Of a DNA stretch of 64,000 nt, positions 2,758 through 61,809 are shown piece by piece. The position numbers were made by a program, and so were the translations under genes. Source of the DNA: Eledone cirrhosa (taxonomy: Eukaryota). Below the pieces are notes generated by a model. The model saw only the letters and a list, made by a program, of their open reading frames with translations, was not told where the DNA came from and ran no database searches. Each line of letters opens with the position of its first letter. The first letter of the stretch is position 1. Where the stretch lies: positions 267,592,001 to 267,656,000 of the forward strand of contig OZ024740.1 of NCBI GenBank assembly GCA_964016885.1. The letters run 5' to 3'.

Positions 2758-3074
2758 TGTTTCATTGTTTTGTAGATGTGTGTATGTATGTGTGTCGTTT
2801 TTCGAAATATTTACTTCTGCATTCACAGATTGATTTTTTTAGTTTCAGAAGATCCCGTTAAGGGTGAAAGCAGCGATTCTTTGCTTAAACTTTAAGCTGT
2901 CATTTTAATATATATATATATATATATATAAATAACAGATTAAAGTTTAAGCAAAGAATCGCTGCTTTCACCCTTAACGGGATCTTCTGAAACTAAAAAA
3001 ATCAATCTGTGAACGCAGAAGTAAATATTTCGAAAAACGACACACATACATACACACATCTACAAAACAAAGAA

Positions 3075-3592: not shown

Positions 3593-3995
3593 ATAATTGT
3601 TTCTGCGTTAGGCACAAAGCCAGCAATTACCCAGTGCATTACTGGTACTTTATTTTATCGACCCCGTAAGGAGGAAAGGCAAAGTCAACCTCGGCGGGAT
3701 TTGAACTCAGACCGCAAAGGGACGTAACTATGCTGGAAAGCATGGCGTCCGACCCTCTACTGATACTGCCATAATAGTTGTTTCTACTTTAGGCACAACG
3801 CCAGTAATTTGAAGGCGAGGGGAAAGTCGATTAAATCAACACCAGTGCATTACTGGTACTTTATTTTATCGACTGCGTAGGGATGGAAGGCAAAGCTAAC
3901 TTCGGTGGAATTTGCACTCAGAACATAAAGGCCCATAACTATGTCGCTAAGCATGTTGTCTGACGCTCTACCGGTTCTGCCAATCCACCACCCTT
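3593..3995 (-). mobile_element. Two tandem SINE family A copies (short and long subfamily)
   Basis: Reverse-complement match to SINE A consensus at ~3593-3770 and ~3775-3995. Confidence 0.85.
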
Positions 3996-4588: not shown

Positions 4589-5206
4589 TCATATATACTC
4601 AAATATAAACTGATCTGAATTATGAGCCCCCCCCCCCCCATTTTATGTCTGAGAAATGCGCCAAATCCAAATCCCATTTCTAAGCCAAAGCAGCTAATCA
4701 ACACATTGTTTAGATGGTGAATATAACATTTTAACATTGATTTCTTTTTTTAGGGGGGTCACATAATCCTGGTAGTGAGACATGGGCAGCAACTTTGGAG
4801 GATATACGGCGGCTGAAGAGAAATGAAGCAAGCATGCTCCAATGGATGTGCAAAGTCAATGAACGACCAAGCATAGATGAGATGAGAGAGAAACTGTGTA
4901 TAAGCGGGATAAGCTGTAGTGTGTGGGAGAGAAGACTGCTTTGGTATGGACATGTGATGCACATGGAAGATGACAGCTGGGTGAAGAAGTGCCAAGAAAT
5001 CCTGGTGGAAGGAAGTTGCAATAGAGGAAGACCACGAAAAACATAGGTGGAGGTGGTGAGAGCTGACCACAGATCACTGAAGCTCACAGAGGATCGTAAC
5101 ACATGGAGTGATGCTGTGCTGAAGAGGAACCATTCTACCCTTGCAAGCAGGGAAAAGTGGATGTAAAATGATGATGAATCCCCGGCTTATATTCAAGTAT
5201 ATACAG
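4589..5206. mobile_element. Tc2/pogo-like MITE interrupted by an RTE insertion
   Basis: TIR-like ends TA|TCATATATACTCAAATATAA ... TTATATTCAAGTATATACAG|TA; interior homologous to 59359-59547. Confidence 0.7.
4770..5176 (+). mobile_element. 5'-truncated RTE-clade LINE 3' end
   Basis: Translation GSETW...RLKRNEASMLQWMC...RRLLWYGHVMHM...RGRPRKT; (GAT)n tail; AATCC duplicated on both sides. Confidence 0.9.
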
Positions 5207-10169: not shown

Positions 10170-10695
10170 TCTGTTACCTGCATGACTAAATTAGCAGTGG
10201 AAGTGGGTGTTCTGAAAGTATAGTAGCCAGAGTGAGAATGGGATAGAAAAAGTTCAGGGAGGTATTATTGCTGCTAGTTACAAAAGCCTTTTTCCTCAAA
10301 ACAAAACAAAAAACAGATTGCATGAAGCTTGTATACGAACAGCAATGCTGCATGGAAGTGAGACCTGTGCAATATGTGCAGAAGATCTACAAAGATTGAA
10401 AAGAAATGAAGCTGGAATGCTTTGATGGATGTGTAATAGTAGTGCACATGAATAACAAAGCATCAATGATCTGAAAAAGAAACTAGGCATAAGGGGGGTT
10501 AGATGGTGTGTGCAGGAGAAGAAATTGCAGTGGTGTTTGGCACTAGGATAGGTATCCAGGCATAGGTTCCAAGCCAAAGTGCAGATCTGTATGAACAAGA
10601 CATGGTCATCTGACCTGAATTGTCTCATAACAAGACAACCCATCTAACCCATGCTAGCATGAGAAAATGTACATTAAACAGTGATGGTGATGATA
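10170..10695 (+). mobile_element. Decayed RTE LINE C-terminal fragment joined to an RTE-type tail
   Basis: Translation ESIVARVRMG*KKFRE...ACIRTAMLHGSETC...LQRLKRNEAGML*WMC. Confidence 0.8.
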
Positions 10696-10737
10696 CATGC
10701 ACACACATATATATATATATTATTTAATATAGAAATG

Positions 10738-10787
10738 GCTTCTACAGGACTAGAAATGTTTTATTCGAAGGAAATCATCAGGAAAGC
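10738..10787 (-). ncRNA. Type I hammerhead ribozyme motif (decayed; GAAA reads AAAA) in a (TA)n-flanked element spanning ~10721-10866
   Basis: Minus strand reads gctttc-CTGATGA-tttccttcgaat-aAAAC-atttctagtcct-GTA-gaagc; homologous to both arms of 57321-57434. Confidence 0.65.
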
Positions 10788-10943
10788 ATATAATTTGTTG
10801 AGTGCTTTATATCAGTTATACAAATATTTGCTTGTTGTATCCCAACAAATTAAATATAACTTCTACATATATATATATATATATATATATAAATTATTAG
10901 AGAAACATGATCATCATACATATTAAATATGTATTGATACCTT

Positions 10944-10989
<46 letters not shown>

Positions 10990-10990
<1 letters not shown>

Positions 10991-11177
10991 CGAAGGAAAT
11001 GTGGTAAGGAACCAAGTGGACCATAACGCACCAAAGTACTCAATACTTAGGGTAGTAGAGTGGGTAATAGGAACGAGTAGGACCCCGACGGCTGAGCTCA
11101 AGCCGTTTCGACGGCTAATTCAGTCCAGAATTAGCCGTTGAAACAGCTTGAGCTCAACCGTCGGGGTCCTACTCGTT

Positions 11178-11182
<5 letters not shown>
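10990..11182 (-). mobile_element. (TA)n-embedded fold-back element: palindrome 11067-11182 plus unique tail 10990-11066, containing the 3' half of a hammerhead
   Basis: 55-bp arms with 3 mismatches and a 6-nt loop; minus strand reads ...GCCGTC-GAAACGGCT-tgagctc-AGCCGTC-GGGG; (TA)n on both sides. Confidence 0.75.
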
Positions 11183-11228
<46 letters not shown>

Positions 11229-11419
11229 TATGTATATAGACTATTATATAGACTATTATACTATGTCTGTGTTAAAAATCTGGATCAATAATATATATAT
11301 GAGTCTGAAATGTGTACTTGTATTGATATGATGATAAAAACTTCCCTAAAGGTGAATGCCCCACTGTAGCTGCAGTCCAATGAAGGACAATAGTAACAAA
11401 GTAACATACAATTTTTTGT

Positions 11420-12445
11420 ATGCACACATACACACAAACATACAGACACACACACATACAGACATACATACACACACATACAAACACACATACATACAGA
11501 TACAGACACACACAGATTCAGACACACACACACATACATACATACATACAGATACAGACACACACAGACAGACACACACAGACACACACACATACACAGA
11601 CAGACACACACACAGATACACACACACATACACACACACACACACACACAGATACAGACAGACAGACAGACACACAGATACAGACATACACACAGACAGA
11701 CACACACAGACACAGACAGACATAGACAGACAGACAGACAGACAGACACACACATACATACATACACACATACATACACACACATACAAACACACACGCA
11801 TACAGACACACACAGATTCAGACACACACATCCATACATACAGACACAGACAGACACACACACATACAGACACACACACACACAGACAGACACACACAGA
11901 TACAGACAGACACACACAGATACACACACACATACACACACATACACACACACACACACACACAGATACAGACAGACACACACACATACACACACAGCTA
12001 CAGACATACACACACATACAAACACACACACATACACACACAGATACACACACACACATACACACAGATACACACACACACACACAGATACAGACAGACA
12101 GACACACACACACACACACACACATATACAGACACACACAGACAGACACACATACACACACAGACAGACACACACACACAGACACACATATACACACATA
12201 CACACACACAGACACACACACACAGACAGACACACACAGATACACACACAGATACAGACACACACACACACAGATACAGACATACATACACACACATACA
12301 AACACACACACATACACATACACACACAGATACAGACACACACAGATACACACACACATACACACAGATACACACACACACACAGATACAGACAGACAGA
12401 CACACACACACACACACAGATACAGACACACACCCATACAAACAC
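11420..12445. repeat. ~1-kb compound (CA)n/(CAGA)n/(CATA)n microsatellite
   Basis: Direct inspection. Confidence 0.95.
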
Positions 12446-12464
12446 ATGTGTGTGTATGTGAGCG

Positions 12465-16277: not shown

Positions 16278-16470
16278 ATAATTGTTTCTACTTTAGGCAC
16301 AAGGCCAGCAATTACCCAGTGCATTACTGGTACTTTATTTTATCGACCCCGTAAGGATGAAAGGTAAAGTCAACCTCGGCGGGATTTGAACTCAGATCGT
16401 AAAGGGACGTAACTATGCTGGAAAGCATGGCGTTCGACTCTCTACCGATACTGCCAATCCACCGCCCTAT
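16278..16470 (-). mobile_element. SINE family A, full length (short subfamily)
   Basis: Head agggcggtggattggcagtatcggtagag (A-box-like), B-box gttcaaatcc, Deu/Nin-like core, (ATT)n tail. Confidence 0.9.
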
Positions 16471-19880: not shown

Positions 19881-20559
19881 ATCTTAGTTTGTAGCCCTTA
19901 ATGAAGATTTACCAGCATCAACTTGTTAAATTTGGTAGAGTGTCTTGCTTAATTGAGCTACGTCTAAACATTTATGTTTTAACTTCAAAATTTATTGATG
20001 TTGGCTTTGCTCTTCACCCTTCCAGGGACAATAACATGAGCCATGTACTGAAAATGGTTAAATTAAATCCTCTTTTTCATAAAATTGTGTTGTTATTATT
20101 ATTATTGTTGTTGTTGTAACTGACATTAAATTCTCTTTCTTTGCTGTCACCTGGAGGAGTTTGTATGCCTTTATGATCCTGTGAGATATGTTGGTTGGTG
20201 TTCAAATGTCTCTCATATATAATTAATTTAGACAAGTTTTAGGCAAAAGGCCAAGTCTAAATACAAGAAATCAGACCTACATGTTAAGGATTAGGCATGG
20301 AGCTACTTACCACATTTTATAAATACTAAAGTTTGTTATGGAAACTACAAAGGAGAGCACAATAGTACAGTAACTGAGACAAGAGACTGGCTATATATAT
20401 ATATATATCATCACAGTTTAACATCCATTTCTCCAGGCTAGCATAGGTTAAGCAAGTTGTCCCATTGTGAAACAAGCCAGATCAGATGACTGTGTCTTGC
20501 TCATACAGAACTGATTTTAGCTTGGTTTCTACAACTGAATGCCTTTCCTAGTGCTAATT

Positions 20560-21065
20560 ACATTTACAGTGTGGACTGGGCACATTTTGTTGTGGCACTA
20601 ACACAACCACCTTACAGCGTGGGTTGAGCACCTTATGTTGTGTCACCAACATGACCATTTCACAGTGAGGACTGGGTGCTTTTTGTTGTGTCACCAACAT
20701 GATTACTTTTCAGTGTGGACTGGGCACCAACACGACCACTTTACAGTGTGGACTGGGCATTTTTTGCTGTGGCACCAAGATGACCACTTTACAGTGTGGA
20801 CTGGGTGCTTTTTGTTGTGTCACCAACATGACCACTTTACAGTGTGGACTGGGAATTTTTTGCTGTGGCACCAACATGACCACTTTACAGTGTGGACTGG
20901 GTGCTTTTTGTTGTGTCACCAACATGACCACTTTACAGTGTGGACTGGGAATTTTTTGCTGTGGCACCAACATGACCACTTTACAGTGTGGACTGGGTGC
21001 TTTTTGTTGTGTCACCAACACAACCATGCTACTGAGTTGACTGGGTGCTTTTTGTTGTAGCACCA
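20560..21065 (-). repeat. 48-bp minisatellite (about 10 units, partly alternating A/B variants) inside an RTE-tailed SINE
   Basis: Unit cactttacagtgtggactgggtgctttttgttgtgtcaccaacatgac at 20881 and 20929; SINE tail at 20410-20560. Confidence 0.9.
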
Positions 21066-21167
21066 AATATTTTTGTTAAATAATAGTCTGATCAATTTAA
21101 ATATCTCACTACACACTGTATTATAGTACAAGTGGCCAAGTATTCCACATATACACACACATATATA

Positions 21168-22274: not shown

Positions 22275-22710
22275 AATCATCATCGTCGTCATCATCATTA
22301 TGATCATTTTTTTTATATCCAATTTTGCATTCCTGCATGGGTTGGACTGGTCCATTTCAACACACCATTTCTCCACTCAATGCATTCCTTCATCATCTCC
22401 TCTGCGAGTTTCAGTGGTTTGAGATTAACCCTCACCATCTCTGTCCAGGTCTTCCTTGGTCTACCTCTACTGTGGATTCCTTCTACTGTGATTTCCTGGC
22501 ACTTTGTCACCCAGCAAACATTATCCATGCACATCACATGCCTATACCAGCCTAGTCTTCTCTTATGTACACTACTTTGAATTCCTCTTAAACCCAGTTT
22601 CTCCCTCAGTTCGTTCAAGCTGTCTTTCTCTCACATTTACATTGCACATCCAATGAAGCATGGGTGCTTCATTTCTCTCCAGCCTAAACATATCCTCTGC
22701 AGTTTTTGTT
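22275..22710 (-). mobile_element. RTE LINE 3' end
   Basis: AEDMFRLERNEAPMLHWMC / ELREKLGLRGI..RRLGWYRHVM..RGRPRKTW. Confidence 0.85.
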
Positions 22711-27476: not shown

Positions 27477-27670
27477 AGTGATGAAATGCCTACGACGGTT
27501 GGAAGGCCACTGATGAAGGGAATTGCATGGTATTGGTTGTTAGAAATCATATGAAACAGAACCAACACACATATGTATTACTCTATTACTCTATTACGTG
27601 TTCCAGCCAACAGGCTGAGGCCATGCTGGGGCACAGCTGTTATATGTATGTGTGTGTGTGTGTATATATA

Positions 27671-27856
27671 TAATTGTTTCTACTTTAGGCACAAGGCCAG
27701 CAATCACCCAGTGCATTACTGGTACTTTATTTTATCGACCCCGTGAGGATGAAAGGCAAAGTCAACCTCGGCGGGATTTGAACTCAGATCATAAAGGGAC
27801 GTAACTATGCTGGAAAGCATGGCGTCCGACCCTCTACCGATACTGCCAATCCACCG
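27671..27856 (-). mobile_element. SINE family A
   Basis: Match to consensus. Confidence 0.85.
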
Positions 27857-28056
27857 TGTATATATATAATATCATCATCATCATCATCATCACAGTTTTA
27901 TGTCCATTTTTTCATGCTTGCATGGGTCAGACGTGTCGTCCGCGTCAAGAGATAAGTCCGGCCAGGATTGACCATTACATAACTTGCTCTGACAGGACTG
28001 TAAATTTGGCCAGGGTTTTTTTACAGCTCGGTGCCCTTCCTAACATCAACCACATT

Positions 28057-28097
<41 letters not shown>

Positions 28098-28101
28098 CAC
28101 A

Positions 28102-28428
28102 TAGACGAGTTGAGAAAGAAACTGGGTATAAGAGGGATAAGTTGTGGTGTGCAGGAGAGAAGGCTGAGATGGTATGGACATGTGATGTGCATGGAGGATG
28201 ACCACTGGGTAAAGAAGTGCCAAGAAATACCAGTAGAAGGAAGACGCAGTAGAGGAAGACCACGAAAAACATGGGCGGGGATGGTGAAAGCACACCTCAG
28301 ATCGCTGAAACTCACCGAGGAGATGACGAAGTACTGTGACAAGTGGAGAGATGCTGTGCTGAATAGGATCCATCCAACCCTTGCAAGCAGGGAAAGGCGG
28401 ACGTAAAATGTTGATGATGATGATGATG
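28102..28428 (+). mobile_element. Young 5'-truncated RTE LINE 3' end
   Basis: Open frame DELRKKLGIRGISCGVQERRLRWYGHVMCMEDDHWVKKC..RGRPRKTW; (GAT)n tail; atacatacaca flanks both ends. Confidence 0.9.
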
Positions 28429-37522: not shown

Positions 37523-39089
37523 AACCAGTTTATCATACCAGTAATTATTTATGAAGCCAAAACACGATAGATGTATAAAAAGAAGAAAAAAGCAGAATAG
37601 ATCTGTAAACTAATACAAAGAAGTATGGAAATTTTTTGATATGAATTACTAAAAAGAACAGAAAAACCGTTATAAGAGAGCCTTGCAGAATATACTTTAG
37701 AATTATTATGTTTTGTATTCAAATCTTGTCACGGTCAACTTTACCTCTCATTTCTTGCGGAGGGGAGAAGCCAATAAAATCATGGCAACCTCATTTCATG
37801 TCATTAAAACATTTCAGTTCTAACCTTTTAATTCCAAACTGGATAACTCTTACTACTTCCTGTTGTTTTTGTGGTTTCTATACATATAAAATGGACATAG
37901 ACACAAGTCATGAAGAAATACTCGGACTAACCAGCAAACTGCAACAGATATTTTATTATTTTTCTTGTTATCTTTTTATATGTGAATGAAGATACTCCAA
38001 GTTATCCTACCCACTGTTAAGTGTAAGTGAAATCTTACAAAATAAAATACCCATCAAAGTATTGGGGTTGATTTAATCAACTTTACCCTCCCCTAATCTG
38101 CTGGTCTAGGGTTTAAATTAAAAACCATTACCATTAGTATTATTGTTGGAAATAGTGTGTTCTTGTAGAAGGCTACAGCAATGCAAATAAGACATTCAAC
38201 ATTAAAATAACAATAACAAAGTACTTTATCATTGTTATTTTTAAATGTAATATCCTGTCTGCACTGCTGTAGCCCTCTAAAAACACTATTTTCTACACTT
38301 TCCACTATATCTCAAGCAAATTACAACATCTACTTATTGTCGTTGTCGCCCTGTGTGGTGTAAGTGCAGGGAAAATATGTGGGTCTTGGTCTTTTGGGTG
38401 CTGAGCCAAAATTATTCTTGTTCAATGTCATGTTGAGCAATTGCCTTGCCATTCTTATTCATTGGTTTTGATTTAGTCTGTAATGTGTCTGTGAATTTTC
38501 ATTATTGATTTTTCTATGTTAGAAAAAATATACATTCTGTGTGTGTGTCTGTGTATGTGTTTTGTATGCAGGTTTGTTTGAGTATGTACTGTTGTGCTGT
38601 GTTTGTGTGTAGGTTTATATGGGTATGTACTATTGTGATGGGTGGTTGTGAAGTATGTGTGTATTGTGTGTGTGCGGGTTTATTTAGATATGTACTGTTG
38701 TGTTGTGTGTGTGTGTGTGTGTGAATTTTATGTAGGAGATAAGGTGGAGTGGAACACTATAATATTTTTTATTGAGTGTCATAGATGGCTAGGCAAGAAC
38801 ATTTCAAAGCAGACTGTCCAGTTTCTGTTTGAAAGCTGTCCATCAGTATAATACTTGTGGGTATGAATTTAATTTATTAATCCTTCTTACATGTGAGCTG
38901 TGTGGCTCACTTTCTCGACTGTCACTGACTAATTCATAAAAGCACTATGATGCTGCCCAGTTTAAAACCAGTACCTGGTCCTTGGGTGACTTTAGTTGAA
39001 TTCCCTCTGTACCAAGCTTTCAGAACAGAATTACAATTATTTCCCTGTCCACATTGTTTTTGTTTTATTTTGCATACATTGATTTGCTG

Positions 39090-39540
39090 TTGTTCAAGCT
39101 GGGCATTAGCTACGTAGCTAAGACTGCATCTAAAAGCCTGGCCCTATTTCTCAGAGGCAGAAAATTCTTCATCCCCCTACAACTCTGACACTCTTCAAAG
39201 CTTAGGTAAGACCCAGTGTAGAATACTGCTTTTACATCTGCGGTGATACTACTACTGCTACTACAACACACAAACATCTTTGACTGCATCCAGAAAAAAG
39301 CCCCTCATCTAATTGGCATAAAGTCAAACAGACATACTTCAGCTACTGGCCCTCAGATATTCTGTCTCCTCTTTCTACCTTTTCAACTGCAATTTCAATG
39401 GCCTCTTCTTTTCAGAACTGACTGACCTCTTTTGCATTTCTCCTCCTCTTATCACCGATATTGTGTCCAACTCCCCGAGTCCTGCAATAAACACTACACC
39501 CAATCTTTCCTCTTCAAAATGTTCTCCTGTAGGAGTGGAC
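39090..39540 (+). pseudogene. Decayed CR1/Jockey-group LINE C-terminal fragment
   Basis: FKA*VRPSVEYC and FDCIQKKAPHLIG motifs. Confidence 0.55.
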
Positions 39541-40309
39541 TTGCAACAATTTAAACTGAATATCAACAATATCCATCACATTCATCTCATAGGATATGTA
39601 ATGTTGAAGGGTACATCTTGTTCCTCCAGACAGAGTAAAATAAATATATATGTGTACATGCAAGCAAAAATGTTTGATGTTACATGTGTATCCCCTGTAC
39701 ACAAAGATGCATGCATGGTTCATAACTTTTAAGGAAGTCGTAAGGGTGTCGTGTTGACATTTGACATTTCTATGGCCTTTTTTAAACCTGGCACAGCCTA
39801 TCTTCTCTCCAGGTCTGAATATAGCAGATTTCTTCGAGAGAGTAAAAGAATGAAAGTGAGAAAGAGATATAGAGGAAGAACTGACCATAGTACTTGACTG
39901 GTACTTTTTTTATCAACCTCGAATGGATGAAAGGCAAAGTTGACCTTAGAGGGATTTGAACTCAGAGAGGAGAGAGCCAAAACAAATACTGCAAAGCATT
40001 CTATCTGATGTTCTAATGAATCTGCTAATTCACCACCTTCATGCACAAACATACATATTTACATATGCATATTGTCTTCGTTTTTTAAATGAAATAACTT
40101 TTGATATATAACTCTGTAGGTAAATTGTTTAAATGGCAACTGCAGAGTAAGAAAACATTCCAAAGACACTGACAAACCTTCATGAGGAGTAGAAAGTAAT
40201 GAGAGTGAAAGAGAAAATAGAAATAAAAAACAAAAATAAATAGAGATGATGTGTTTGTGAAAACAGTAGCATTAATGAGGAAGAGAATTTGTTAGTAAAG
40301 TGGAGGGAG

Positions 40310-43332: not shown

Positions 43333-43481
43333 TACATATATAAACTTAAGAAAATTAACAAAGAGAGTACACAGAACTTTGGCAATTTCAACCCAGTGTC
43401 ACAATGTCTGACATAAGCCAAATGTTGTCCATTGAAGTAAGAGATGAGAGACAAAACATTAATTTATAGCAACACACACAC

Positions 43482-43529
<48 letters not shown>

Positions 43530-43531
<2 letters not shown>

Positions 43532-43680
43532 GGAATTTATCAGCTCGTCCCATGTTTTTCTGGGTCTGCCTACTCCGTGGCTACCGTCTATCTTTATTGC
43601 CCTGCACTTTGTTATACAGCTGTCGTCTTTCATGCGCATCACGTGACCGTACCAACGTAGCCTTCTCTGTACAGTTATGT
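43530..43680 (-). mobile_element. Short RTE fragment
   Basis: VQRRLRWYGHVMRMKDDSCITKCRAIKIDGSHGVGRPRKTWDE. Confidence 0.85.
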
Positions 43681-43711
43681 TGGTCCCACAACATCCAGGC
43701 CGAAACAAATG

Positions 43712-44074
43712 AGATCGTGTAGGTGTCACGACAAAAAACACACAGTCCACGCTGTAAATGTGGCCGTGTAGGCAACACGGTAAAAACCTCCCAGCCCCAC
43801 ACTGTAAATGTGGTTGGTGTTAGGAAGGGCATCCAGCTGTAGAAAACCCGCCAGACAGTCCACGCTGTAATGTGGCCGTGTAGGCAACACGGTAAAAACC
43901 TCCCAGCCCCACACTGTAAATGTGGTTGGTGTTAGGAAGGGCATCCAACTGTAGAAAACCCGCCAGACAGTCCTATGCGAGCAAGACAACCACTCTTGCC
44001 TCAAGTGGGAAAACCCCCGTCCAAACCCATGCAAGCGTGGAACACGGACGCTAAACCTGATGATGATGATGATG
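43712..44074 (+). mobile_element. RTE-tailed SINE body with an internal ~111-bp tandem duplication
   Basis: acagtccacgctgtaa...gtagaaaacccgccag occurs twice (from ~43742 and ~43854); (GAT)n tail. Confidence 0.8.
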
Positions 44075-44411: not shown

Positions 44412-44617
44412 AGCTGTAGAAATGAGATGATAGGTACTGAGGTCCTTATCATTCCACTGTAAAGTGGTCGTGCAGGTGCCACGGCAAAAAAGCACCCAGC
44501 ACTCACTGTAAATGAGGTTGGTGTTAGGAAGGGCATCCAGCTGTAGAAATCAAGCCAGCATCAGTTCCCGTCCTACCCTTGCAAGCAGGGAAGAAGCAGA
44601 CGTAAAATGAAATGATG
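44412..44617 (+). mobile_element. SINE family B, 5'-truncated
   Basis: Match to 25250-25460. Confidence 0.85.
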
Positions 44618-48325
<3,708 letters not shown>

Positions 48326-48391
48326 TACAGAGTACCCGACCTCCCATGGGTACAAGCTGAAGCATATAGACAATACGCCCCCCACACCCCC

Positions 48392-48535
48392 CACTGCAAG
48401 GTGGTCGTGGATGTGCCATGGCAAAAAAAGCACCCAGCCCACACTGTAAAGTGGACGTGTAGGCGCCACGAAAAAGCACCCAGCACTCACTGTAAATGAG
48501 GTTGGTGTTAGGAAGGGCATCCAACTGTAGAAATC
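48392..48535 (+). mobile_element. SINE family B internal fragment
   Basis: Tandem units plus the ggttggtgttaggaagggcatcc motif. Confidence 0.8.
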
Positions 48536-48740: not shown

Positions 48741-48983
48741 TATTAGAAATGTAATCTATCGCCGTATTTTGACTAAAGAAATGACAGAAATTATTTAGCC
48801 TGATAGTGAGGTTAAGAACCCTCGGAGAAATGGAAAAAGATGAGTATCTTTTTCCATTTCTCCGAGGGTTCTTAACCCCACTATCAGGCTAAATGATTTC
48901 TGTAATTTCTTTAGTCAAAATACAGCGATAGCTTACATTTCTAATAATTTCAAACCCACTCGCTGTTTTGAAAATATTCTTAC
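48741..48983 (+). mobile_element. (TA)n-embedded fold-back element: palindrome 48741-48946 plus 37-nt tail
   Basis: 101-bp arms, 4-nt loop (gagt), about 5 mismatches; (TA)n on both flanks. Confidence 0.8.
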
Positions 48984-51836: not shown

Positions 51837-52073
51837 GTGAAATGAAGTACTACCTAGTCAAAGAATTAATTCCATGATATTAGGATCATGAACTCAACAA
51901 GCTAATACACGGATACACATCTTCACATACATATATATATATAAAAAGCGGACGTAAAATGATGATGATGATGATGATATGTATGTGAAGATGTAGCCTT
52001 GTAGTTAGCTTGTTGAGTTCATGATCCTAAGATCATGGAATTAATTCTTTGATTAGGTAGTACTTCATTTCAC
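51837..52073. repeat. Inverted duplication (~97-bp arms) around a (TA)n plus RTE-tail spacer
   Basis: gtgaaatgaagtactacc...cttcacatacatat mirrors atatgtatgtgaag...ggtagtacttcatttcac. Confidence 0.9.
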
Positions 52074-57320: not shown

Positions 57321-57328
<8 letters not shown>

Positions 57329-57434
57329 GGCTTCTACAGGACTAGAACTATTTCATTCGAAGGAAATCATTAGGCTTTCCTGATAATTTCCTTCAAATGA
57401 CACAGTTCTAGTTTTGTAGAAGCCATTTCTATAT
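57321..57434. mobile_element. (TA)n-adjacent fold-back element with a hammerhead motif in each arm; its tail is interrupted by the Helitron and resumes at 57938-58000
   Basis: Imperfect ~55-bp arms; plus strand 57374-57423 reads gctttc-CTGATAA-tttccttcaaat-GACAC-agttctagtttt-GTA-gaagc; homologous to 10721-10787. Confidence 0.7.
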
Positions 57435-57440
57435 TAAATA

Positions 57441-57937: not shown

Positions 57938-58024
57938 TTTATACTCTGCTATGTATTGAGTATCTTACTTGGTGTGGTTACCCCCGATTGAACCCGGGAT
58001 ACACATACATACATACATACATAA

Positions 58025-58182
58025 TAGAGAATCAAGGCCCGACAGCTGAACTCTTGCCATTTTGAAATGGCAAGCACTCAGCCATTGGGCCCTAATTCTC
58101 TACTAAATGTAAAATCTACTATCTTAAGTATCGGATACTCTGCTGAATTATGCTCTTACTAGTTTAACCTGATATAATCCTG
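58025..58182 (+). mobile_element. Fold-back element (palindrome 58025-58102 plus tail), same family as 10990-11182
   Basis: Shares cccgac(a/g)gctga(a/g)ctc and the tail tctacta.c.taagtat....tact; flanked by (TACA)n and (TA)n. Confidence 0.7.
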
Positions 58183-61150: not shown

Positions 61151-61406
61151 ATTCTCAGAAAAATGGGAAAACTCGGCATATGGAAGCTGTTAGAACAGCA
61201 AAATACCATCGAAGTCACATTGGGTATAATATTACCTTGAAGGACAGATCAGCCGCTGATCTCTGTCCTTCGAGGTAATATTCTACCCTATGCCACTTCA
61301 ATGGTATTTTGCTGTTCTAACAGCTTCCATACGCCGAGTTTTCCCATTTCCCTGAGAATCCTAATACACTCGCATCTCAAAACTCTATTTTTTAGTTAAT
61401 TTGTTT
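61151..61406 (+). mobile_element. (TA)n-embedded fold-back element: palindrome 61151-61359 plus ~45-nt tail
   Basis: ~100-bp arms centred on gatcagc-c-gctgatc; (TA)n upstream and tatatat downstream. Confidence 0.8.
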
Positions 61407-61418
61407 ATATATATTGAT

Positions 61419-61809
61419 GGAGGCACATGGCTTAGTGGTTAGAGCATTGGCCTTGCAATCGAAAGGTTGTGAGTTCAATTCTCAGACCAGGTAATGTGTT
61501 GTTTCCTTGAGCAAGACACTTTATTTCACATTGCTCCAGTTTACTCAGCTGTAGAAATGAGATGATAGGGACTGGGGTCCCTATCATTCCACTGCAAAGT
61601 GGTCGTGGAGGTGCCACAGCAAAAAAGCACCCGGTCCACACTGTAAAGTGGACGTGTAGGCGCCACGGAAAAAAAGCACCCAGCACTCACTGTAAATGAG
61701 GTTGGTGTTAGGAAGGGCATCCAGCTGTAGAAATCAAGCCAGAATCAGTTCCCGTCCCACCCTTGCAAGCAGGGGAAAGTGGACGTAAAATGATGATGAT
61801 GATGATGAT
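61419..61809 (+). mobile_element. Composite SINE family B, full length
   Basis: tRNA head, core, atgataggg..ccctatcat hairpin, tandem units, RTE tail. Confidence 0.9.

What the first reader, a model, noticed from the sequence alone, without database searches (positions are those of the whole stretch)
11067..11182. CpG-rich palindrome containing the 3' half of a hammerhead, folded back in putative stem II
Seen: the minus strand reads GACGGCTAATTC-like arm, loop, GAATTAGCCGTC-GAA-ACGGCT-tgagctc-AGCCGT-C-GGGG. That gives a GAAA core, a perfect 6-bp stem III, a GUC triplet (11089-11087) and a G-rich stem I strand. The CUGAUGA half is absent and replaced by the inverted copy. The arms differ at only 3 of about 55 positions. 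Inference: the cDNA snapped back on stem II and copied itself.
Basis: partly seen in the sequence, partly recalled or inferred. Interest (0 to 1): 0.75.

Follow-up and report, generated by a model that had tools for sequence, protein, structure and literature searches.

The report
Two-ended Penelope-type insertion, half hammerhead
This mirror-image stretch is one short copy of a very abundant repeat that sits in TA runs; it likely arose when a Penelope-type jumping-gene enzyme copied the same RNA end into both sides of a DNA break and the two copies were joined head to head, a layout already described for these elements.

Summary
The palindrome is real: arms 11067-11121 and 11128-11182 pair at 52 of 55 positions, and GAAA, a 6-bp stem III and GUC are where stated. 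It is the core of a 190-bp insert (10990-11181) between two (TA)n runs, with a 77-nt extension (tail) on the left arm only. Sequencing runs show a very high-copy family with two alternative TA-joined ends, the mark of Penelope-like elements (PLEs). The 12-bp 'stem II' is made by the inversion: other copies continue with unrelated sequence, and the 6-nt loop is native sequence of the tail-less arm, so self-copying cannot explain the tail on the other arm. Junctions in other copies fall at many places. Best reading: two cDNAs primed from both sides of a break, joined at their 3' ends. The decisive test stays open: no CTGANGA lies in the tail or within 52 nt upstream of GAAA in the one long copy seen that far, and further letters could not be displayed. 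Head-to-head PLE ends with a one-sided tail are published, and this scan noted the same layout on other DNA of this genome.

The parts
10964..10989 (.). left (TA)n run, insertion target
   Evidence: tail-bearing copies abut (TA)n in 1228 X14 reads
10990..11066 (-). 77-nt optional 3' extension (tail), on this arm only
   Evidence: X14 reads join (TA)n directly at 11067 (3488 reads, agreement 0.81) or near 11000; tail follows 11182 in X6 and X7 contigs; related tail of the same length at 58106-58182
11067..11121 (-). left arm: element 3' end in RNA sense on the minus strand, motif intact
11087..11109 (-). hammerhead-like 3' half: GAAA (11109-11106), 6-bp stem III with 7-nt loop holding the palindrome GAGCTC, GUC (11089-11087)
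   Evidence: no Rfam hammerhead match
11080..11086 (-). G-rich strand after GUC, candidate stem I 3' strand; partner not seen
   Evidence: inference
11122..11127 (+). 6-nt spacer; native upstream sequence of the right arm, not an RNA loop
   Evidence: reverse complement of the continuation seen in other copies (table 7)
11128..11182 (+). right arm: second copy of the element 3' end, no tail, 3 substitutions
11180..11227 (.). right (TA)n run, insertion target
58022..58182 (.). older, diverged member of the same family, also head to head with a one-sided 77-nt tail; turns at the GAAA core with no spacer (centre 58063/58064)

Best explanation
The stretch is a short insertion of a high-copy repeat in a (TA)n run, likely written by a Penelope-like reverse transcriptase that primed two cDNAs from the two sides of one break and whose products were likely joined head to head. 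Shown: two alternative TA-joined ends 77 nt apart, one used by each arm; spacer native to the tail-less arm; varied junctions. Inferred: the endonuclease nicks both strands of (TA)n; one cDNA starts at the tail end, the other at the inner start site; both stop in the stem II region of a hammerhead-like motif; the 3' ends anneal through 1-4 nt (here AAT with ATT) and fill in. The CUGANGA half is missing because copying stopped before it, possibly at the RNA's 5' end.
For: High copy: 17337 contigs laid in X1, 24296 reads in X14. Two ends on (TA)n. Native continuation identifies the spacer's owner. 10 of the 15 joints shown (26 found) link a tail-side arm cut at 11014-11079 to an opposite arm starting at 11121-11123; 6 of these 10 break inside the tail; raw X14 reads support 4 of the 10 (11041, 11045, 11061, 11073). 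Four further, all different, junctions in X5 (3) and X6 (1). Family member at 58022-58182 turns elsewhere with no loop. Three more head-to-head inserts with an extension on one side only, beside TA runs, in the window. Published: inverted 5'-truncated copy, one-sided tail and (TA)n bias (PMC8557442); a PLE protein cuts and extends both strands and starts at two internal sites that bound the tail (PMC11167929).
Against: No reverse transcriptase or GIY-YIG frame is linked to the family: 0 of 148 window frames and 0 of 2 arm frames hit one. The tail (77 nt) is about twice the published 30-40 nt. Contig joints are biased to junctions near 11122, since short contigs must overlap the reference. In the family E palindrome (57326-57440) and in the X6 contig the longer arm carries the tail, which fits fold-back as well. 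Copies in X4, X5, X7 and X9 run at least 20 nt further upstream, so the stop is not absolute. CTGANGA and the stem I partner were never seen.
Confidence: 0.7

Rival explanations
1. One cDNA or antisense strand folded back on itself and copied itself.
For: Near-symmetric arms with a 6-nt loop; 3-nt AAT/ATT match at the turn; self-priming proposed in PMC3846280 (passages); compatible geometry in family E.
Against: Here the loop belongs to the arm without the tail, so the copied arm holds 77 nt its supposed template lacks. No native 12-bp hairpin. Junctions with 0-1 nt loops (58063/58064; X6) and junctions inside the tail. Rescue needs a template switch or a later flip of the spacer.
Confidence: 0.12
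2. The GAAA-stem-GUC match is not a working ribozyme half but a relic or a different hairpin (a start or packaging signal) in a PLE-type end; insertion mechanism as in the best explanation.
For: No CTGANGA in tail or 52 nt upstream; no Rfam hammerhead match; a competing hairpin that closes over CGAA is as stable as stem III (-8.0 against -7.7 kcal/mol); no compensatory change beyond CpG decay among listed variants or in the 58-kb copy; copies read through GUC without a drop in depth.
Against: Motif rare by chance (3 of 20000 shuffles); it sits about 20 nt from the inner end, where PLE hammerheads lie (Hydra table; family E in this window); 5-bp core and GAGCTC-like loop recognisable in the diverged copy.
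Confidence: 0.3
3. A fold-back or MITE-type DNA transposon with TA targets.
For: Short, non-coding, long inverted repeat, TA on both sides.
Against: One-sided tail, two alternative ends, single-armed copies, variable centre.
Confidence: 0.05
4. Assembly or library artefact, or later replication fold-back of a solo copy.
For: Palindromes can arise in amplification; no read was shown to span this exact locus.
Against: Arms differ at 3 places, 2 by CpG decay; flanks are not mirrored; the right arm ends exactly at the family's inner natural end; X1 contigs 2 and 8 cross the same junction register with other variants.
Confidence: 0.05

Closest known systems
Endonuclease-bearing Penelope-like elements: inverted 5'-truncated pLTR with one-sided tail (PMC8557442 passages and supplement part 2; PMC3846280 passages)
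   Same: Head-to-head arms, optional tail on one end, (TA)n target, hammerhead-like motif near the 3' end, palindromic junction
   Different: No coding body in this copy; tail 77 nt, not 30-40; only half the motif; clade not assigned; geometry argues against the self-priming proposed in PMC3846280
Poseidon of Anolis, PAc (PMC11167929, parts 1-2 of 4 read)
   Same: Two internal start sites that bound the tail; both target strands extended; uncut RNA copied through the ribozyme
   Different: PAc has a complete compact hammerhead overlapping its start codon; no conserved frame is evident here
PLE minimal and variant type I hammerheads (PMC4209133, parts 1-2 of 4 read)
   Same: GAAA, C before it, UH, palindromic loop 3; that paper also notes motif pairs on opposite strands 100-700 bp apart
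   Different: Stem III of 5-6 bp is long for animal PLEs; CUGANGA not located; stem II would need an insert of about 37 nt or more
Naiad 'HHR_half_core' elements of cephalopods (PMC8557442 methods and File S1) and type-SGC hammerheads (PMC10085705, part 1 and passages)
   Same: (TA)n target, core halves far apart
   Different: There the CUGANGA half is the one present; here it is absent downstream, so a scrambled order with C after G is excluded for this copy; 4 family motifs had no match in File S1 and an 8-mer matched only unrelated places

Membership tests
Penelope-like element (EN+) or its non-autonomous derivative | RT plus GIY-YIG open reading frame in full-length copies | not testable with these tools
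   No genome held; none in 148 window frames; public contig scans empty
Penelope-like element (EN+) or its non-autonomous derivative | Optional tail at one end, two alternative 3' ends | tested here: met
   77 nt, longer than published
Penelope-like element (EN+) or its non-autonomous derivative | Inverted 5'-truncated copy, head to head, variable junction | tested here: met
Penelope-like element (EN+) or its non-autonomous derivative | Insertion in AT-rich or (TA)n targets | tested here: met
Penelope-like element (EN+) or its non-autonomous derivative | Partial tandem (direct pLTR) copies | not testable with these tools
   needs genome or long reads
Type I hammerhead ribozyme | GAAA, stem III, UH | tested here: met
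Type I hammerhead ribozyme | CUGANGA core 5' of stem II | tested here: inconclusive
   Absent in this copy and in 52 nt upstream of GAAA in X7 record 10; 64 further letters not displayed
Type I hammerhead ribozyme | Native stem II | tested here: inconclusive
   CGGCTA, complementary to TAGCCG, lies 37 nt upstream in 1 contig (X7); it may instead be the end of a mirror arm, and the X5 consensus of 3 contigs differs there
Type I hammerhead ribozyme | Stem I | not testable with these tools
   partner strand would lie beyond the displayed letters
Type I hammerhead ribozyme | Self-cleavage after UH | not testable with these tools
   bench assay
Type II or scrambled (SGC, GCS) hammerhead | CUGANGA downstream of GAAA | tested here: not met
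   none within 1 mismatch in 10986-11185
MITE / fold-back DNA transposon | Fixed symmetric termini | tested here: not met
   one-sided tail, two ends, single-armed copies
Non-LTR retrozyme | Tandem units each with a complete hammerhead | tested here: not met
   this copy has no tandem unit and half a motif; other copies of the family not testable

The most novel reading that the evidence does not exclude
The element's promoter sits inside an enlarged hammerhead stem II (a TATTTAAATA box and an initiator-like TCATTT just upstream of the point where many copies stop), so its RNA begins with half a ribozyme that cannot cut itself, the whole ribozyme forms only on read-through, and the short palindromes are paired run-off cDNAs that mark the RNA's 5' end.
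Probability: 0.2. Interest if true: 0.6.

Novelty: new member of a known kind. Interest (0 to 1): 0.3.

Why it matters
How PLEs make head-to-head ends is unsettled in the papers read: self-priming was proposed from palindromic junctions (PMC3846280), while in vitro work shows extension of both target strands from two internal starts (PMC11167929). This locus gives a simple discriminator, which arm owns the spacer and which owns the tail, that can be tallied over thousands of copies. The locus itself is an ordinary dead fragment.

Tried and rejected
No genome held, so the genome-wide BLAST was impossible. Exact-pattern scans found nothing in metagenome contigs, genome contigs (21, 51) or viral contigs (22). 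Rfam gave only generic hairpin matches below gathering score. No window copy carries the upstream part. Pfam: 0 of 2 arm frames; 4 of 148 window frames had sub-cutoff hits, none retroelement. The '7223 molecules end at 11120' signal in X14 was rejected as biology: it falls on an AATT site in a RAD library, and reads passing it mostly lack the site (1228 of 1593 and 1102 of 1348); the enzyme is my inference, and it blinds X14 to the window's own subfamily upstream of 11120. X10 laid 0 records. No RNA holder listed. A 3' splice site at TTAG was considered; junctions scatter from 6 nt before to just after it, so it explains the stops poorly. Fold-back at native hairpins: none of the displayed junctions keeps a native hairpin loop (12 of 16 rows of table 5c, 10 of 14 loose ends were displayed). 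Sequence and nearby look-ups in earlier findings returned nothing. Literature searches listed no paper on this family; subscription papers, Repbase and Dfam were not searchable, and the bioRxiv supplement was not opened. Of 16 runs listed, 8 were laid.

Full report
Observation. The palindrome is as described: arms 11067-11121 and 11128-11182, 52 of 55 pairs, a 6-nt spacer, CpG observed/expected 1.21 against 0.30 in the window. On the minus strand GAAA (11109-11106) is followed by a 6-bp stem and GUC (11089-11087); this arrangement arose in 3 of 20000 shuffles. No CTGANGA-like word lies on either strand of 10986-11185, and Rfam gives no ribozyme match. The window is animal, microsatellite-rich DNA; earlier notes call the genome octopus-like.

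The insert runs from 10990 to about 11181 between two (TA)n runs, and the left arm carries 77 extra bases. No genome is held, so I used public runs (8 of 16 laid). The family is very abundant: 17337 contigs in X1 and 24296 reads in X14. Copies meet (TA)n at two places, directly at 11067 (3488 reads) and at the far end of the extension (1228 reads clipped at 11000); X6 and X7 contigs show the extension after the arm, others run straight into TA. An optional one-sided tail, an inverted 5'-truncated copy and a (TA)n bias are described for PLEs (PMC8557442, passages, tables), and the tail was shown in vitro to lie between two internal start sites of an enzyme that cuts and extends both target strands (PMC11167929).

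The turn is not a native stem II. After 11121 other copies read TGGACTAAAT (2249 reads in X14; 127 contigs in X1; X4; X9), or a variant from 11117 (2020 reads). The spacer is the reverse complement of the first 6 of these letters, so it belongs to the right arm, and the 12-bp hairpin exists only because of the inversion. A molecule that folds back can copy only what it holds; here the arm that owns the loop lacks the tail and the other arm has it. Junctions also vary: 10 of 15 displayed joints link an arm cut at 11014-11079 to an opposite arm starting at 11121-11123, 6 of them inside the tail; four more distinct junctions appear in X5 and X6; a diverged family member at 58022-58182 turns at the GAAA core with no loop and has its own 77-nt one-sided tail. 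Against my reading: contig joints are biased to junctions near the reference's spacer, and in family E and the X6 contig the tail sits on the longer arm, which fits either model.

Mechanism. Most likely two cDNAs were primed from the two sides of a break in (TA)n, one at each start site, and joined through a few complementary 3' bases (inferred; 0.7). Self-priming, proposed in PMC3846280, fits this locus only with an added template switch or spacer flip (0.12).

Is it a hammerhead? Position and motif favour it: about 20 nt from the inner end, as for Hydra-clade motifs and for family E in this window, whose linear copy keeps CTGATGA at 10781 on the minus strand. But the defining core was not found. 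Copies in X4, X5, X7 and X9 share some 20 further upstream bases. In X7 record 10, the only one seen to 52 nt upstream of GAAA, the display ends at CGGCTA, a perfect partner for the TAGCCG before the core, 37 nt away (paired by eye). This would make a long stem II with CUGANGA just out of view, but the same letters could be the end of a mirror arm, and the X5 consensus differs there. A core downstream (type II or scrambled, PMC10085705) is excluded for this copy. A hairpin closing over CGAA competes with stem III. Depth does not fall at GUC, so uncut RNA was copied, as in PMC11167929.

Why copies stop here. In X14 reads that lack the AATT site the consensus breaks up after TGGACTAAAT (agreement 0.51), which ends at the A of TCATTT in the long form, with TATTTAAATA about 25 nt upstream. 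TCATTT matches an initiator consensus that I recall, not one from a call; internal promoters and TATA/initiator-like words in pLTRs are reported (PMC2377424; PMC3846280). The evidence here is thin: one subfamily, a RAD library, and several longer copies.

Verdict. A new member of a known kind: a short PLE-type head-to-head insertion. No coding partner was found, so the clade is open. At least three other families show the same layout in this window and earlier notes report it elsewhere in the genome. Interest 0.3; the useful residue is the tail-versus-spacer test and the open question of a promoter inside stem II.

Noticed in passing
window 48741-48980: Head-to-head insert, arms about 103 nt, 4-nt spacer, about 37-nt extension on the right, between TA runs; unrelated sequence.
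   Followed up: partly
window 61153-61410: Head-to-head insert, arms about 97 nt, extension of about 50 nt on the right only, TA run on the left.
   Followed up: partly
window 57326-57440 and 10721-10865: Family E: a palindromic copy with a 13-nt one-sided extension, and a linear copy 125 nt left of the finding that keeps CTGATGA (minus strand, 10781) with a decayed GAAA.
   Followed up: partly
window 2796-3039: Inverted repeat of the opposite layout, with (TA)n in the middle and the mirror extending into flanking CA/TG runs; the left arm reads like a hammerhead with CAGAAGA in place of CTGAAGA (read by eye).
   Followed up: no
window 51837-52073: Diverged inverted repeat (76%) around a TA and ATG microsatellite centre.
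   Followed up: no
window 4741-5046, 22313-22630, 28044-28406, 43388-43819, 10296-10643: Several frames with a shared RLxWYGHV-type word, resembling 3' ends of RTE-type LINEs (label recalled); no Pfam hit.
   Followed up: no
window 3593-3779, 16278-16464, 27670-27856 and 5 more: Dispersed repeat of about 187 nt in 8 copies, SINE-like (D17).
   Followed up: no
window 44500-48450; 20515-21093; 11400-12460: A 4-kb TA/TACA array, a 48-bp minisatellite and a 1-kb CA/CAGA array.
   Followed up: no
window 39517-39909 (-), 38937-39143 (-): Sub-cutoff Pfam hits to Copper-fist (E 0.00045) and Cu2_monooxygen (E 0.0046); may be chance or small host exons.
   Followed up: no
window 61428-61485: Weak tRNA-like match (28.1 bits, just under the 29-bit cut-off) next to the 61-kb palindrome, perhaps a SINE head.
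   Followed up: no
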